From the UHGV virus genome UHGV-1333064: 40,697 nt of DNA; one strand, given 5' to 3'. Shown here one piece after another: positions 34,164 through 36,869 of the stretch; position 1 is the first letter of the stretch; every line of letters starts with the position of its first letter. A program made the translations under genes and the position numbers. The DNA is from a virus. The notes under the pieces are model-generated. The model ran no database searches. It was not told the DNA's origin and worked only from the letters and a program-made list of their open reading frames with translations.

Positions 34164-34397
34164 TTAGGCCGCAGTATCACGCGGCGATGCGAATACCAGG
34201 CTTTCTTTTAGGACCGGAGCCTGGCGGTGAAAATTCTTCGTGCCTTTCTCGATAGCAGATGCCATTTCTGGAGATGCCCGGCGATTTCCGTAGGCGATCT
34301 GGTCCAGGTAACCTGGCGTCGTGTTAGCCAACTTTGCGAGCTGCGCCCATTCGTCGGTAGTGGCGGCCTTGCGCCAGCGGTGTAGTTCAGTGCTCAT
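34164..34397 (-). CDS. Cro/YdaS-like HTH regulator
   Basis: 77-aa ORF divergent from the repressor gene across the operator region; HTH-like segment EWAQLAKLANTTPGYLDQIAYGNRRASPEMASAIEKGT. Confidence 0.6.
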   Translation of the reverse strand: MSTELHRWRKAATTDEWAQLAKLANTTPGYLDQIAYGNRRASPEMASAIEKGTKNFHRQAPVLKESLVFASPRDTAA

Positions 34398-34429
34398 TGG
34401 TGTCTCCGGGTGAGTCGTTTGATTTGGAG

Positions 34430-34495
34430 TTTAGCGTTATGCTAAATACTACGCAAGCATCATTTAGCAATTTGCACATTTATCATTTTGCTAAA
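34430..34495. promoter_or_regulatory. right operator region: three 17-bp operators (6-5-6, half-site TTTAGC) between the divergent cro-like and cI-like genes
   Basis: O1 TTTAGCGTTATGCTAAA (34430-34446, perfect palindrome), O2 TTTAGCAATTTGCACAT (34463-34479), O3 TTTATCATTTTGCTAAA (34479-34495). Confidence 0.6.
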
Positions 34496-34513
34496 AGCAG
34501 TAACAATGCAGGT

Positions 34514-35191
34514 ATGGAAAATAAAGAAATCAGAAAAGCCAACCTGGAAGCGCTGTACGAGAAGCGTCAGCACGAGTCTGGAATGACCAAAGCGCAGTTT
34601 GCCGAGCTCATCGAGACAAGTCCGGCTGCGCTTAGCCAGCTACTGGGACCAAACCCTCATCGCAATATCGGCGATAAGATGGCTCGCAAAATTGAAACTG
34701 CGCTTGATCTGCCTTTTGGCTGGATGGATGTTTTACACGCCAGTGAAGAACCTTCGAACGTTGCATTTCGAGGACTGAACGAGACAAAAGGAAGTTATCC
34801 TGTAATCAGCTGGGTAAGCGCGGGGCAATGGATGGAAGCTGTAGAACCTTATCACCGAAGAGCGATAGATCGCTGGTATGACACGACTGTTGACTGCTCA
34901 GAAGATTCATTCTGGCTGGACGTTAAAGGGGATTCTATGACCTCCCCGGCTGGACTAAGCATACCCGAGGGAGCAGCGATACTTGTTGATCCTGAAGTCG
35001 AGCCGCGCAACGGAAAGCTGGTTGTCGCGAAGCTAGAAGGCGATAACGAAGCGACCTTTAAGAAGCTTGTAATCGATGCCGGCAGACGCTTCCTAAAGCC
35101 CCTTAACCCCGCATATCCAATGCTAGAAATTAATGGAAACTGCAAAATCATCGGCGTTGTGGTTGATGCCAAAATACTAAACATCCCATAA
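34514..35191 (+). CDS. CI-like repressor (N-terminal HTH, C-terminal LexA/S24 autopeptidase domain)
   Basis: Track ORF 34397 (TTG) trimmed to ATG 34514 (MENKEIRKANLEAL). C-terminal region parallels lambda cI (GDSMTSP, ILVDPEVEP, ATFKKLVIDAGRRFLKPLNPAYPM), so the S24 Ser/Lys dyad is likely present. Confidence 0.8.
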   Translation: MENKEIRKANLEALYEKRQHESGMTKAQFAELIETSPAALSQLLGPNPHRNIGDKMARKIETALDLPFGWMDVLHASEEPSNVAFRGLNETKGSYPVISWVSAGQWMEAVEPYHRRAIDRWYDTTVDCSEDSFWLDVKGDSMTSPAGLSIPEGAAILVDPEVEPRNGKLVVAKLEGDNEATFKKLVIDAGRRFLKPLNPAYPMLEINGNCKIIGVVVDAKILNIP

Positions 35192-35210
35192 CCTCACGCA
35201 AAACCCCTCA

Positions 35211-35236
35211 AGCCCGCCATCGCGCGGGCTTTTTTA
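35211..35236 (+). terminator. intrinsic terminator after the repressor gene
   Basis: AGCCCGC-CATCGC-GCGGGCT followed by TTTTT, 20 nt after the repressor stop. Confidence 0.55.
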
Positions 35237-35274
35237 CGTCCCGAATTACTTCGCTGTAAATTTTTAATCGCTTA

Positions 35275-35349
35275 TTAATCAATACGCTAAATAAAACCAT
35301 TCAATAATTTAGCATTTTGCTATTGCGCATAATTTAGCATCACGCTAAA
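35275..35349. promoter_or_regulatory. second operator cluster (left-operator-like): three 17-bp sites with TTTAGC/GCTAAA half-sites
   Basis: TTAATCAATACGCTAAA (35275-35291), TTTAGCATTTTGCTATT (35308-35324), TTTAGCATCACGCTAAA (35333-35349); same 6-5-6 architecture as the 34430-34495 cluster. Confidence 0.5.
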
Positions 35350-35649
35350 TTTACCCCATCGAAACGAAACATCGACAGCTGAGCGAAGTTAGCCAGCGGC
35401 GGACAGCAAGTCGCCTGCTCATTAAGAATTCAGTCAAGCAGCAAATCACCCGGAGCGCTCCTGGCAAATTGAAATGGCGCCCAATGGGATTGAGGCAGGT
35501 GTGTAACGCGTGGCGGGTATAGCACACGAAGAGGACTCCGCACCGGAATGGTTTGCTGCTCAGTTCCCGAACATCGGGGAAGCTTTACCAGCAGCTCTTT
35601 GCGAGGGGCTGACGGCAAATCTACTCCACTTATTTAAAAGAGACGGTAT

Positions 35650-35823
35650 ATGGATAATCAGGATAATGAGTTAAGAAAGGTTGTTCAGGAACTTGCTGAT
35701 GAAGAAGGCATCAGCTTTTCCGATGCCCTAGATGTTTCGATTAAAGCGCTGCGTTATGAGGTAGAGCGCAGAAAATCGTTTAACGGTGAAGCTGCTTGTG
35801 ATGGCTCTGCAATTACTTCTTAG
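35650..35823 (+). CDS. small acidic hypothetical ORF (57 aa), not in the supplied ORF track
   Basis: ATG 35650-35652 to TAG 35821-35823, read by eye; its 3' end overlaps the convergent 92-aa gene by 11 nt. Weak Shine-Dalgarno, so coding status is uncertain. Confidence 0.25.
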   Translation: MDNQDNELRKVVQELADEEGISFSDALDVSIKALRYEVERRKSFNGEAACDGSAITS

Positions 35824-36091
35824 CCAAGTACCAAGAGGTGTCTGCGGCTTCGGAAACCAGTACGTAATAGCTTTGCTTTACACTACTAGCTATACCTCTG
35901 ACTTCCTCTCTAACGTTATATGCAGTTGATGTTTTTACGGTTGTATATTCAGCTGTTGGGAGGTTAAACCAAGTGCCATTACCATCCTGTATCTCACGCG
36001 AATAACCCTTTGCTTTCATCTTTTCATGAAGATTTTCATAGTCTTCAGAATCAGCGCCGCGCAACTCAACTCGAACAATATATCTTGCCAT
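35813..36091 (-). CDS. hypothetical protein (92 aa) at the rexAB-equivalent position
   Basis: Track ORF 35813..36232 trimmed to MARYIVRVELRGADSEDYENLHEKMKAKGY... (ATG 36089-36091) with AGGAA 7 nt upstream. Opposite strand to both cI and the early-left operon. Confidence 0.5.
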   Translation of the reverse strand: MARYIVRVELRGADSEDYENLHEKMKAKGYSREIQDGNGTWFNLPTAEYTTVKTSTAYNVREEVRGIASSVKQSYYVLVSEAADTSWYLAKK

Positions 36092-36106
36092 AAGAAGATT
36101 CCTATA

Positions 36107-36151
36107 TTGACTGTGGAATGAGCAACATATCAGTTTCCTTTGACTGTGGAA
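36107..36151. repeat. two direct 12-bp repeats TTGACTGTGGAA upstream of the 92-aa gene
   Basis: Copies at 36107-36118 and 36140-36151 (33-bp period), 16 nt upstream of the 92-aa gene start; each contains TTGACT. Confidence 0.3.
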
Positions 36152-36205
36152 AGCAAAGGGACACGGGCCGGGCGTGGATAAAAATCCCGGCACCAACCAT
36201 CGCAA

Positions 36206-36231
36206 AGCCGCCACCTGAGCGGCTTTTTTCA
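36206..36231 (+). terminator. intrinsic terminator between the immunity region and the early-left operon
   Basis: AGCCGC-CACCTGA-GCGGCT followed by TTTTTT. Confidence 0.5.
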
Positions 36232-36362
36232 TACCTAAGAAACTTCGCAGAGGTTTCTAAGTTATGAGACGGCGGCCATCCACCGCCCATTGAAACACTG
36301 AATAAATGCGTTGAAGTCTTGTATTAACCGTTCCGTTCGCCGCGATAAGGCCAAGAGGATTT

Positions 36363-36572
36363 ATGAGTGATTTGGAGTTGGGCTTAAAGATATACGCATT
36401 ATGGTTTGTCGGGACGTTTCTGCTCGGCATAGCAATCAACTCGCTGACGAAAAAAGAACATCGCCAGCCAATTTCAAAACTAGCCATTGACCATGTACGC
36501 ATGTCTTCCGCAATAACCATTGTGGGCCTGATTGTGTGCGGTATGGTCTGGTTCTTATTCAAGGTGGTGTGA
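36363..36572 (+). CDS. small membrane protein (two predicted transmembrane helices), first gene of the early-left operon
   Basis: 69-aa ORF with hydrophobic segments IYALWFVGTFLLGIAI and ITIVGLIVCGMVWFLF. Confidence 0.45.
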   Translation: MSDLELGLKIYALWFVGTFLLGIAINSLTKKEHRQPISKLAIDHVRMSSAITIVGLIVCGMVWFLFKVV

Positions 36573-36573
36573 G

Positions 36574-36732
36574 ATGACAGTCACCCACAACGGCAAGCAG
36601 TACACCGACAAAAAGCTCAACGATAACGAGTGGCAGCTGACGTCGGTATCGGCACCGCGCGACAAGCTGACGCTGAACCGCCAACAGATGAATATCGCTG
36701 GCCTCCTGGAACAGGTTGAGGTGAAGGTATGA
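36574..36732 (+). CDS. small hypothetical protein (52 aa)
   Basis: Track ORF 36532..36732 trimmed to MTVTHNGKQY (ATG 36574-36576, 1 nt after the upstream stop). Confidence 0.35.
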   Translation: MTVTHNGKQYTDKKLNDNEWQLTSVSAPRDKLTLNRQQMNIAGLLEQVEVKV

Positions 36733-36869
36733 TCAATCATCACCTGCTGCGCGCCGCGCAGAGCAAAGCAGCCATTGCCCTGTTTATCGGTGATGGCGCC
36801 ATGTGGATGGCAGCCTACGACGAAATGAAGGTTGCCATCGGTTATCCGTGGCATAGAAAAACAGCCTAA
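36729..36869 (+). CDS. small hypothetical protein (46 aa), not in the supplied ORF track
   Basis: ATG 36729-36731 overlaps the upstream stop (ATGA); read by eye as MINHHLLRAAQSKAAIALFIGDGAMWMAAYDEMKVAIGYPWHRKTA. Confidence 0.3.
   Translation: MINHHLLRAAQSKAAIALFIGDGAMWMAAYDEMKVAIGYPWHRKTA

What the first reader, a model, noticed from the sequence alone, without database searches (positions are those of the whole stretch)
35650..36231. Convergent small-gene pair at the rexAB-equivalent position, with direct repeats and flanking terminators
Between the left-operator-like cluster and the early-left operon sits a 92-aa gene (good SD) on the opposite strand to everything around it, overlapping at its 3' end a possible 57-aa plus-strand ORF. 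Two 12-bp direct repeats lie in its presumptive promoter and terminators flank the block. In lambda this position carries the RexAB exclusion system and is a known site for lysogen-expressed defence or toxin-antitoxin cargo. I cannot assign either protein to a family.
Basis: partly seen in the sequence, partly recalled or inferred. Interest (0 to 1): 0.6.

Follow-up and report, generated by a model that had tools for sequence, protein, structure and literature searches.

The report
Portable antisense prophage gene cassette
A real, mobile two-gene cassette in the early-left operon of an Enterobacter prophage: a GhoS/Cas2-fold protein with its own conserved promoter faces a small acidic protein gene, and the opposite strand of the promoter module encodes a conserved RNA pseudoknot not found in the databases and papers searched.

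Summary
The features exist. Both genes are real. The 57-aa frame has dN/dS of 0.03-0.17 across six related loci (up to 0.39 in pairs among the relatives) and 39 homologue clusters. The 92-aa protein is a distant relative of e14 YmfI with a GhoS/Cas2-type ferredoxin fold. NCBI labels such proteins "GhoS antitoxin", but there is no GhoT-like toxin gene here and profile similarity to true GhoS is negligible.

The pair moves as one mosaic unit (about 35649-36231). It sits as the first genes of the PL transcript, after a putL-like leader, so it is not at the rexAB position. E. coli K-12 e14 ymfI/ymfJ has the same layout.

The 12-nt repeats belong to a portable regulatory module found in at least 120 viral contigs. 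It carries an extended -10 promoter and a 33-bp tandemly repeated leader, and it drives at least 13 unrelated small genes that mostly lie antisense to the phage operon. On the operon strand the same DNA encodes an H-type pseudoknot supported by compensatory changes, usually followed by a terminator.

Best reading: a gene expressed in the lysogen and switched off by head-on PL transcription, with the 57-aa protein as a possible antagonist. Defence or toxin-antitoxin function is untested.

The parts
35650..35823 (+). 57-aa acidic (pI 4.4) two-helix protein, 'type A partner'. It is the first ORF of the PL transcript.
   Evidence: ORF. 39 homologue clusters in Enterobacterales. dN/dS 0.03-0.17 between the window and six related loci (up to 0.39 among the relatives), with third-position changes dominant. 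AF2 pLDDT 82, helices 2-19 and 23-48, disordered variable tail. No Pfam, PHROG, PADLOC or NCBIfam family. No fold match with E<1.
35813..36091 (-). 92-aa YmfI-family protein with a GhoS/Cas2-type ferredoxin fold; the antisense cargo gene.
35813..35823 (.). 11-nt overlap of the 3' ends of the two convergent genes; no terminator between them.
   Evidence: Coordinates. The same -11 to -15 nt overlap in relatives. No terminator-like site in 35232-36200.
36098..36103 (-). Shine-Dalgarno AGGAAT of the 92-aa gene. It is complementary to the AUUCC that starts the proximal repeat.
   Evidence: Sequence. The GGA core is conserved in the alignment. The pairing is my inference.
36107..36118 (-). Proximal copy of the 12-nt repeat TTCCACAGTCAA, in the predicted 5' UTR.
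36124..36132 (-). Predicted extended -10 promoter element TGATATGTT of the 92-aa gene.
   Evidence: TGnTAnnnT lies between the repeats in 69 of 99 unique modules. The T and A of the -10 are conserved in the alignment. The promoter scan tool, which requires both hexamers, did not call it. No transcription start data.
36140..36151 (-). Distal copy of the 12-nt repeat. It overlaps the -35-like TTTCCA (36152-36147) and belongs to a degenerate duplicate of the promoter-leader unit.
   Evidence: Period 33 nt in 89 of 99 unique modules. Comparison with single-unit modules in e14, phiES15 and pAEv1818.
36162..36191 (+). H-type pseudoknot on the operon strand. S1 36162-65 pairs with 36173-76; L1 is G36166; S2 36167-72 pairs with 36186-91; the A-rich L3 is 36177-85.
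   Evidence: S2 hairpin in 96 of 99 unique modules. S1 of at least 5 bp in 58% against 6% of shuffles. 97.4% of cells paired, 3 of 5 S1 pairs with compensatory changes, and 0 of 500 shuffles reach the covariation score. Nine G-U cells on this strand would be A-C on the other. Stem variants are listed.
36207..36229 (+). Intrinsic terminator for the PL-direction transcript (tL1-like) at the edge of the cassette.
   Evidence: Fold. Conserved at this place in most relatives, with G-U pairs that work only on this strand. In HK225 and E. coli ECONIH4 the equivalent terminator lies between Q/PR' and the holin gene.
35356..35619 (+). Context: putL-like leader of the PL transcript. No N gene is present.
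   Evidence: 97.7% identity to Enterobacter phages ENT1 and BHUENT. 35584-35619 matches the annotated 'putL-like antiterminator RNA' of HK639, and the 5' part matches the HK639 PL leader.

Best explanation
The block is a self-contained accessory (moron) cassette of lambdoid prophages, built as a convergent 'excludon'.

Shown: the 92-aa YmfI-family protein (GhoS/Cas2 fold) is encoded antisense to the early-left operon. It sits behind a conserved, portable promoter-leader module. The 57-aa gene is the first ORF of the PL transcript. The two genes, the module and a + strand terminator travel together as one mosaic unit.

Inferred, step 1: in the lysogen PL is repressed, so only the 92-aa gene is expressed, from its extended -10 promoter.

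Inferred, step 2: on induction or infection, put-modified PL transcription makes the 57-aa protein. It then runs head-on through the 92-aa gene and its promoter. This silences the gene by transcriptional interference and by a full-length antisense RNA. The polymerase then reads through the terminator into kil and the recombination genes.

Inferred, step 3: the 57-aa two-helix acidic protein neutralises residual 92-aa protein. This would let the phage escape its own lysogen-expressed factor, which is most likely an RNA-binding or RNA-cleaving exclusion or regulatory protein.

Inferred, step 4: the pseudoknot on the operon strand stabilises or insulates the operon RNA downstream of the antisense gene.

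Steps 3 and 4 are the weakest.
For: Both genes are real and the pairing is conserved.

Linkage: 28 of 31 type-A partner loci carry a convergent YmfI-like gene, and 27 of 28 module-driven YmfI-like genes have a convergent overlapping small ORF.

Mosaic unit: homology to Pantoea prophages starts 1 nt before the 57-aa ATG. The cassette occurs after N, after a put-like leader and after Q.

Orientation: flanking large ORFs lie mostly on the opposite strand to the cargo.

Promoter: extended -10 at fixed spacing.

e14 in K-12 has the same layout. ymfJ is induced late in the SOS response together with the genes held by the e14 repressor, while ymfI responds much less (log2 change about 2 against 4.8 at the last time point) (PMC11002266). 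ymfI-ymfJ transcripts overlap in at least half of 58 MG1655 transcriptomes (PMC12288877).

Precedent: prophage genes that lie antisense to lytic genes and have their own promoter are expressed in lysogens (PMC7067206). put RNA suppresses termination in early phage operons (PMC9378689).

Fold: GhoS/Cas2. A GhoS fold can act as antitoxin or toxin (PMC4010927, abstract).
Against: There are no expression data for this locus.

The partner is not family-specific. YmfI-like genes pair with at least five unrelated partner families. The 'type B' partner also pairs with two or more other cargo families. This fits shuffling of modules but also fits mere adjacency.

Three loci keep the 57-aa gene without the 92-aa gene.

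The residues invariant in the window's clade (R7, E9, H22, E48) are not kept in e14 YmfI, so a shared catalytic site is doubtful.

There are no PADLOC hits. No complex prediction was possible with these tools.
Confidence: 0.45

Rival explanations
1. The two genes are functionally unrelated neighbours. The 57-aa protein is an ordinary early lytic gene. The 92-aa protein is an independent lysogenic-conversion gene. The overlap reflects only tight packing of a moron inserted into an operon.
For: Partner and cargo families mix. There are at least five partner families for YmfI-like genes, and type B partners occur with at least three cargo families. Cargo families C4-C6 mostly or entirely lack a partner. 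Three loci have the type A gene alone. Homology breaks fall inside the cassette in L117, L142, L159 and L188.
Against: The pair moves as one unit whose boundary is the 57-aa start codon. Type A is found with YmfI-like genes in 28 of 31 loci, even where the YmfI-like proteins are very divergent. The convergent 3' overlap is kept across three or more partner families and in e14, phiES15 and pAEv1818.
Confidence: 0.3
2. It is a true type V toxin-antitoxin system as annotated by NCBI. The 92-aa 'GhoS' would cleave the mRNA of a toxin, either the 57-aa product or the downstream 69-aa membrane protein.
For: Pfam GhoS hit just above the cut-off. GhoS is the best structural match. NCBI names homologues GhoS. 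A small two-TM protein is encoded at 36363-36572.
Against: There is no co-directional GhoT-like gene. The 57-aa protein is acidic and soluble. The 69-aa protein shows no similarity to GhoT and lies outside the mosaic unit. Profile comparison with E. coli GhoS gives prob 5.8%, and the profile finds no PDB sequence. The partner persists without the 92-aa gene in three loci. At least five unrelated partners would each need a new mRNA specificity.
Confidence: 0.05
3. The 92-aa protein is a regulator that recognises the 12-nt repeats. It would either repress its own promoter on DNA or bind UUGACUGUGGAA on the operon RNA to control the adjacent terminator.
For: The repeats are nearly invariant in loci whose 92-aa proteins share only 38-85% identity. 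Both copies change together (TTCCACAGACAA twice in L020 and L075; another motif twice in ENT1). The fold is RRM-like.
Against: The same module, with the same repeats, drives at least 13 unrelated cargo families. The repeats therefore cannot depend on the 92-aa protein.
Confidence: 0.07
4. The main product of the right half of the block is a structured operon-strand RNA (pseudoknot plus terminator) acting as an IsrK-like small RNA. The repeats and promoter would be secondary.
For: Weak full-length match to Rfam isrK on the + strand at 36153-36229 (21.3 bits, E 0.008-0.047). Covariation and G-U pairs favour this strand. IsrK also ends at a leaky terminator downstream of a Q-like gene (PMC4825925).
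Against: The score is far below the gathering score of 50. No isrK match appeared in 9 related loci at E<=0.5 or in 20 loci at gathering score. I found no convincing + strand promoter upstream. Some modules lack the terminator.
Confidence: 0.13

Closest known systems
ymfI/ymfJ of the cryptic prophage e14, E. coli K-12 (both uncharacterised)
   Same: YmfI is a profile-level homologue of the 92-aa protein (hhalign prob 89%; NCBIfam YmfI_phage). It is convergent with and overlaps a small operon-strand gene just downstream of the cI-like repressor. It has a single-unit version of the same promoter and pseudoknot module. It is listed as a convergent excludon.
   Different: BLASTP finds no similarity. 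The window protein scores 59.6 bits against the family cut-off of 140. YmfJ (102 aa, basic) is unrelated to the 57-aa protein. The overlap is 63 nt rather than 11 nt. The window module has the 33-bp duplication.
GhoS, type V antitoxin endoribonuclease of E. coli (PDB 2LLZ), and Cas2-type RNases
   Different: No GhoT partner, different gene arrangement and negligible profile similarity. It works like GhoS only in the sense of a possible RNA-directed fold. I do not file it as a member.
Prophage morons encoded antisense to lytic operons (for example STMMW_20121 of ST64B), and excludons
   Same: Own promoter, opposite orientation to the flanking lytic genes, and overlapping convergent transcription units.
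   Different: Here a specific conserved module (tandem leader repeat plus opposite-strand pseudoknot and terminator) accompanies the antisense gene. A small operon-strand gene is usually linked to it.
IsrK sRNA of Gifsy-1 (Rfam RF01394)
   Same: A G+C-rich hairpin GCCGGG...CCCGG followed by an intrinsic terminator on the operon strand. Related modules lie after Q-like genes.
   Different: 21.3 bits against a gathering score of 50. Not found in related loci. No separate promoter identified. The pseudoknot helix S1 is not part of the Rfam model.
P22 sieB/esc/sas and BstA/aba (prophage exclusion with built-in self-immunity)
   Same: The logic I propose is the same: a lysogen-expressed factor inside or next to the early-left region, and an element of the same phage expressed on lytic growth that neutralises it. 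This comparison rests on my own knowledge of Ranade and Poteete 1993 and Owen et al. 2021, which I did not check here.
   Different: There is no sequence relation, and the function is untested here. BstA_C genes occur separately in some related loci.

Membership tests
Type V toxin-antitoxin GhoS/GhoT | GhoS-family sequence signature | tested here: inconclusive
   Pfam PF11080 gives 22.7 bits against cut-off 21, E 1e-4. hhalign of the family profile against E. coli GhoS gives prob 5.8%. The profile finds no PDB sequence.
Type V toxin-antitoxin GhoS/GhoT | GhoS (Cas2-like ferredoxin) fold | tested here: met
Type V toxin-antitoxin GhoS/GhoT | Co-directional downstream gene for a small hydrophobic GhoT-type membrane toxin | tested here: not met
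   The neighbour is a convergent acidic soluble protein. The 69-aa two-TM ORF at 36363-36572 is divergent, lies outside the mosaic unit and is unrelated to GhoT.
Type V toxin-antitoxin GhoS/GhoT | Sequence-specific cleavage of the toxin mRNA | not testable with these tools
   Needs biochemistry.
YmfI family phage protein (NCBIfam NF051477) | Score above the curated equivalog cut-off | tested here: not met
   59.6 bits against cut-off 140 (E 3e-16, full length). K-12 YmfI scores 161.5. The window protein belongs to a sister clade, not the equivalog.
YmfI family phage protein (NCBIfam NF051477) | Homology to e14 YmfI and the same genomic arrangement | tested here: met
   hhalign prob 89%, E 2e-6 over 90 residues. 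Convergent overlapping partner in the early operon. Shared upstream module.
Excludon (convergent overlapping transcription units) | Convergent genes whose transcripts must overlap | tested here: met
   11-nt CDS overlap and no terminator between the genes. The + strand terminator lies beyond the 92-aa promoter.
Excludon (convergent overlapping transcription units) | Mutually exclusive expression | not testable with these tools
   There is only indirect support from e14: ymfJ is induced much more strongly than ymfI late in the SOS response.
Type II toxin-antitoxin | Co-transcribed pair with a recognisable toxin family and an antitoxin with a DNA-binding fold | tested here: not met
   The genes are convergent. 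The 57-aa model has no fold match with E<1 and only faint resemblance to RHH antitoxins. No Pfam or PADLOC family.
lambda rexAB-position moron | Located between cI and OL/PL and transcribed with cI | tested here: not met
   The cI terminator is at 35210-35231. The operator/PL region and the putL-like leader (35356-35619) lie upstream of the block.
IsrK sRNA (Rfam RF01394) | Covariance-model score at or above the gathering score | tested here: not met
   21.3 bits against 50. Absent in related loci.
H-type RNA pseudoknot | Two helices in pseudoknot topology kept by compensatory changes, with loop lengths that allow both to form | tested here: met
   One search gives 97.4% paired, 3 of 5 S1 pairs compensatory, and 0 of 500 shuffles reaching the score. 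S2 variants are GCCGGG, GCCTG, GCTGGG, ACCGGG and GCCTGT. On the + strand L1 is 1-3 nt and L3 is 5-8 nt and A-rich. On the other strand the loop lengths would be reversed and sterically implausible (my inference).

The most novel reading that the evidence does not exclude
Lambdoid and other enterobacterial temperate phages share a portable 'antisense moron' expression module, which I did not find described in the databases and papers searched. One strand carries an extended -10 promoter with a 33-bp tandemly repeated leader. The other strand encodes a conserved H-type pseudoknot, usually followed by a terminator. The pseudoknot would insulate or stabilise the phage operon transcript after it has read through the antisense gene. 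The YmfI-like/57-aa pair, including K-12 ymfI/ymfJ, would be a new lysogen-expressed RNA-directed exclusion factor with a cognate self-immunity protein expressed early in the lytic cycle.
Probability: 0.22. Interest if true: 0.8.

Novelty: new variant of a known kind. Interest (0 to 1): 0.6.

Why it matters
The cassette has a counterpart in E. coli K-12 (e14 ymfI/ymfJ), so the hypotheses can be tested at once in the best-studied bacterium.

The 92-aa family is routinely mislabelled as the GhoS antitoxin in genome annotation.

The promoter module marks a hotspot that carries at least 13 families of small uncharacterised prophage genes. It therefore offers a sequence handle for finding genes expressed in lysogens.

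The opposite-strand pseudoknot is a candidate new structured RNA with good covariation support. If it insulates phage operons from inserted antisense genes, it would help explain how morons can be inserted into essential transcription units without harm.

Tried and rejected
- Rfam at gathering score on the window and on 20 loci: nothing.
- PADLOC, and Pfam/PHROG/NCBIfam for the 57-aa protein: nothing.
- PDB sequence search with the single 92-aa protein and with the family profile: nothing useful.
- Foldseek of the 57-aa model: no match with E<1.
- AFDB fold search: library unavailable.
- The promoter scan found no sigma-70 site and missed the right-hand terminator.
- BLASTP of the window proteins against YmfI and YmfJ: no similarity. 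Only profiles link the 92-aa protein to YmfI.
- Literature searches for DUF2622, GhoS-like, ymfI, ymfJ and the repeat sequence gave no functional study.
- DnaA-box, RcsB-box, LexA, CRP and IHF readings of the repeats and the hairpin loop were considered by eye. I dropped them as low-information matches that are not conserved across modules.
- A leader peptide (MLLIPQSI) between the repeats: rejected because it is not conserved (M-F-stop in L003).
- Small hairpins around each repeat (UUUCC/GGAAA, AUUCC/GGAAU): not called by RNAalifold and with little covariation. They are left as inference.
- Reading the two upstream hairpins as alternative structures on the 92-aa-sense strand: replaced by the operon-strand pseudoknot after the G-U counts and loop geometry.
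- The 69-aa two-TM ORF as a GhoT analogue: rejected.
Full report
**What is there.** The window is a lambdoid prophage of Enterobacter bugandensis. A genome contig from that species matches the 92-aa gene product at 100%. Reading left to right on the + strand, the region contains:
- an S24/HTH cI-type repressor (34397-35191) and its terminator (35210-35231);
- an operator/PL region with TTAGCA repeats;
- a leader at 35356-35619;
- the 57-aa ORF (35650-35823, +);
- the 92-aa ORF on the opposite strand (35813-36091);
- the two 12-nt repeats (36107-36118 and 36140-36151);
- a hairpin region, then a + strand terminator (36207-36229);
- a 69-aa two-TM ORF, a 52-aa ORF, Kil, and RecT/YqaJ-type recombination genes.

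The leader is 97.7% identical to Enterobacter phages ENT1 and BHUENT. It shares its 5' end and its 3' end with the PL leader and the annotated putL-like antiterminator RNA of phage HK639. There is no N gene.

The block is therefore the first coding unit of the PL transcript. It occupies the place where N sits in lambda and phi80. It is not at the rexAB position between cI and OL.

**Both genes are real.** The 57-aa protein has 39 homologue clusters in Enterobacter, Pantoea, Klebsiella, Citrobacter, Cronobacter and others.
- Residues 1-45 are conserved and the tail is variable.
- Over a 37-codon core, dN/dS between the window and six related loci is 0.03-0.17, and up to 0.39 in pairs among the relatives. 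Changes are concentrated at third positions, for example 2/0/13 against L013.
- The AlphaFold model (pLDDT 82) is a two-helix hairpin with a disordered tail.
- The protein is acidic, pI 4.4.
- It has no family or fold match.

The 92-aa protein has close homologues with about 20 invariant residues. Its model is confident (pLDDT 95) and shows a ferredoxin-like fold.

**What the 92-aa protein is.**
- Pfam gives a marginal GhoS hit of 22.7 bits against a cut-off of 21.
- NCBI names several homologues [quoted passage not shown].
- At profile level the link to E. coli GhoS is negligible: hhalign prob 5.8%, and no PDB sequence hit.
- The link to YmfI of prophage e14 is good: NCBIfam YmfI_phage E 3e-16 over the full length, though below the equivalog cut-off, and hhalign prob 89%.
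- No GhoT-like toxin gene is present. The neighbour is convergent and soluble. The downstream 69-aa membrane ORF is unrelated to GhoT and lies outside the mobile unit.

I therefore treat the protein as a member of a sister clade of the YmfI family with a GhoS/Cas2 fold. I do not treat it as a type V antitoxin.

**The pair is a conserved, mobile unit.**
- In Pantoea prophages the same two genes, with the same 11-nt overlap, follow an N gene directly. In Serratia a related pair lies between Q and the holin gene. In E. coli EH09-18-41 a 1,010-bp block (35350-36359) is 100% identical inside a prophage with RecE-, YdaE- and YdaT-family genes.
- DNA homology to the Pantoea loci begins at 35649, one base before the 57-aa start codon. 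It ends in the promoter module.
- Of 31 loci that encode a type A (57-aa family) protein, 28 have a YmfI-like gene convergent with it. This includes very divergent alleles and genes that gene callers missed.
- The other three loci keep the small gene, but a + strand membrane-protein gene replaces the YmfI-like gene.
- YmfI-like genes in other enterobacterial phages are likewise convergent with a small overlapping gene, but the partner comes from unrelated families. Type B has the motif MKFEEL... Type C is the N-terminal 40 residues of YmfJ, as in e14, phiES15 and pAEv1818. At least two more families exist.
- Distant homologues in Acidobacteriota, sphingomonads and others have no such partner. 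They follow DndB-like or AAA_16 ATPase genes and lie near SMODS-type nucleotidyltransferase, multiubiquitin and helicase genes. These are neighbourhoods typical of defence islands.

**The direct repeats belong to a portable regulatory module.** The roughly 110 nt upstream of the 92-aa gene are better conserved than the protein. The 12-mers are nearly invariant in loci whose proteins share only 38-85% identity, and with either partner type.

The gene downstream falls into at least 13 unrelated families:
- YmfI-like: 28 contigs;
- a 54-62-aa family: 27;
- a 67-72-aa family: 16;
- an 83-86-aa family: 14;
- a 136-138-aa family like HK225_067: 12;
- ECs_2282 zinc-ribbon proteins: 4;
- several smaller families.

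In E. coli ECONIH4 and phage HK225 the module drives the 132-136-aa gene, antisense between Q/PR' and the holin gene. In phage ENT1 the same architecture uses a different repeated motif (TCCCCAACAGYA) and a zinc-ribbon cargo gene. Flanking large ORFs lie mostly on the strand opposite to the cargo. The repeats therefore cannot be operators for the 92-aa or the 57-aa protein.

The anatomy of the module, read in the direction of the cargo gene, is: a hairpin region; unit 1, which has a degenerate -10, the motif and GGAAA; then unit 2, which has TGnTAnnnT, the motif and the SD.
- The period is 33 nt in 89 of 99 unique modules.
- The strict extended -10 pattern is present in 69 of 99.
- e14, phiES15, pAEv1818 and a Serratia locus have a single unit. 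The two repeats therefore look like a retained tandem duplication of the promoter-leader unit.
- The pyrimidine start of each motif is complementary to the SD-like purines that follow it. I infer from this a 5'-UTR hairpin that partly hides the SD. Covariation is too sparse to test the idea.

**A pseudoknot on the operon strand.** The hairpin region is kept by compensatory changes.
- The stem appears as GCCGGG, GCCTG, GCTGGG, ACCGGG or GCCTGT. A hairpin is present in 96 of 99 unique modules.
- A second helix joins part of the hairpin loop to the adjacent segment. Its variants are CCACG/CGTGG, AACCAC/GTGGTT, CCATG/CATGG, TCACG/CGTGA, AACCC/GGGTT, AACCCGC/GYGGGTT and CGGG/CCCG.
- The second helix reaches at least 5 bp in 58% of modules, against 6% of shuffled controls.
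- On the operon strand (+ in the window) the two helices form a standard H-type pseudoknot: S1 of 4-7 bp, L1 of 1-3 nt, S2 of 5-6 bp, and an A-rich L3 of 5-8 nt. On the other strand the loop lengths would be reversed and the fold would be sterically implausible (my inference).
- A formal count on 28 distinct gap-free sequences gave 97.4% of cells paired, compensatory changes in 3 of 5 S1 pairs, and no shuffle out of 500 reaching the covariation score. Slid controls gave 28-44% paired. Nine G-U cells on this strand would be A-C on the other.
- In the window, S1 is 36162-65 with 36173-76 and S2 is 36167-72 with 36186-91. The terminator follows 15 nt later.
- Most modules have such a terminator, and its G-U pairs fit only the operon strand. 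Some modules have none.
- Rfam gives only a weak full-length match to isrK on this strand (21.3 bits, gathering score 50). The match is absent in related loci. It is a lead, not a membership.

**How it most likely works.**

Shown:
- a cargo gene with its own conserved promoter, antisense to the phage operon;
- a small operon-strand gene linked to it;
- no terminator between the two genes;
- an operon-strand terminator and pseudoknot beyond the cargo promoter.

Inferred:
- In the lysogen PL is off and the 92-aa gene is on.
- After induction, put-modified PL transcription expresses the 57-aa protein (put RNA suppresses termination, PMC9378689). It collides with and covers the 92-aa transcription unit, then continues into kil and the recombination genes.
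- e14 supports this logic. ymfJ rises late in the SOS response with the genes controlled by the e14 repressor, while ymfI responds much less. Overlapping transcripts of the pair are seen in most MG1655 transcriptomes.
- Salmonella prophage transcriptomics shows that antisense-oriented genes with their own promoter are expressed in lysogens.

More speculative:
- The acidic two-helix protein neutralises the 92-aa protein, giving the phage self-immunity. I rate this at about 0.3.
- The 92-aa protein acts on RNA. This rests on fold analogy only, and the clade-invariant R7, E9 and H22 are not kept in e14 YmfI.
- The pseudoknot protects the operon RNA downstream of the duplex-forming region. I rate this at about 0.25.

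The mixing of partner and cargo families, and the three loci with the partner alone, keep the "unrelated neighbours" rival alive at about 0.3. A true GhoST-type system is unlikely, at about 0.05.

**Novelty and verdict.** The gene pair is a new clade and arrangement variant of an uncharacterised but named family (YmfI), and it has a K-12 counterpart. I found no description of the portable promoter module, its 33-bp leader duplication or the opposite-strand pseudoknot in Rfam or in the searched literature. Function remains untested. Interest is moderate to high (0.6) for three reasons: the system is widespread, it is mis-annotated, and it can be tested directly in E. coli K-12. It also includes a covariation-supported RNA structure of unknown role.

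Noticed in passing
window 35356-35619 (+): A putL-like leader lies directly after PL, and there is no N gene. The segment is 97.7% identical to Enterobacter phages ENT1 and BHUENT. Both ends match the HK639 PL leader and the annotated 'putL-like antiterminator RNA', but the window carries a longer middle part. Rfam has no match.
   Followed up: partly
L075 2960-3491; L076 1382-1890; L234 318-730; viral contigs L079-L198: The promoter/repeat/pseudoknot module is shared by at least 13 unrelated families of small genes, almost all uncharacterised. It lies after PL/N, after put-like leaders and between Q and the holin gene. In ENT1 the repeated motif is different (TCCCCAACAGYA) but the pseudoknot is the same.
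   Followed up: partly
window 36153-36229 (+): A sub-threshold full-length Rfam match to isrK, the Gifsy-1 Hfq-binding sRNA. It scores 21.3 bits against a gathering score of 50, with E 0.008-0.047. Related loci do not reproduce it.
   Followed up: yes
L074 2847-3856 (E. coli EH09-18-41) against window 35350-36359: A 1,010-bp block (leader, cassette and terminator) is 100% identical between this Enterobacter prophage and an E. coli prophage that carries RecE-, YdaE- and YdaT-family genes. The flanks differ, which points to recent exchange. Only 14 of 5,426 complete E. coli genomes match this module query in a sensitive blastn search (E <= 1e-3).
   Followed up: partly
L064-like annotation: L074 3115-3393; P0004, P0010, P0013, P0022: NCBI annotation names these proteins 'type V toxin-antitoxin system endoribonuclease antitoxin GhoS', although no GhoT gene is nearby. 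This is probably over-annotation from a marginal Pfam hit.
   Followed up: yes
L033-L036, L042, L046, L052 (Acidobacteriota, sphingomonads and others): Distant YmfI-like genes follow DndB-like or AAA_16 ATPase genes. They lie next to SMODS-type nucleotidyltransferase, multiubiquitin, metallo-beta-lactamase-fold and large helicase genes, as in defence islands.
   Followed up: partly
window 36363-36869 (+): Downstream of the terminator lie a 69-aa two-TM protein (PHROG 25975), a 52-aa protein (PHROG 6396) and a lambda Kil homologue (PF06301). All are outside the mobile cassette.
   Followed up: partly
L226, L228, L229 about 1500-2270: In three viral contigs the 57-aa family gene is kept with an extended tail, but the YmfI-like gene and module are replaced by a + strand 149-aa membrane-protein gene.
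   Followed up: partly
window 36140-36165 (+) and related modules: A further inverted repeat encloses the distal 12-mer and abuts pseudoknot helix S1. It reads CCTTTG/CAAAGG in the window and GTTTCC/GGAAAC in many relatives. Several alternative pairings among the TTTCC and GGAAA segments are possible, and their role is unexplained.
   Followed up: no
L004 5461-6360; L006 7265-8182: Some Pantoea prophages that carry the cassette also carry a BstA_C-domain gene next to the repressor, at the true rexAB-type position.
   Followed up: no
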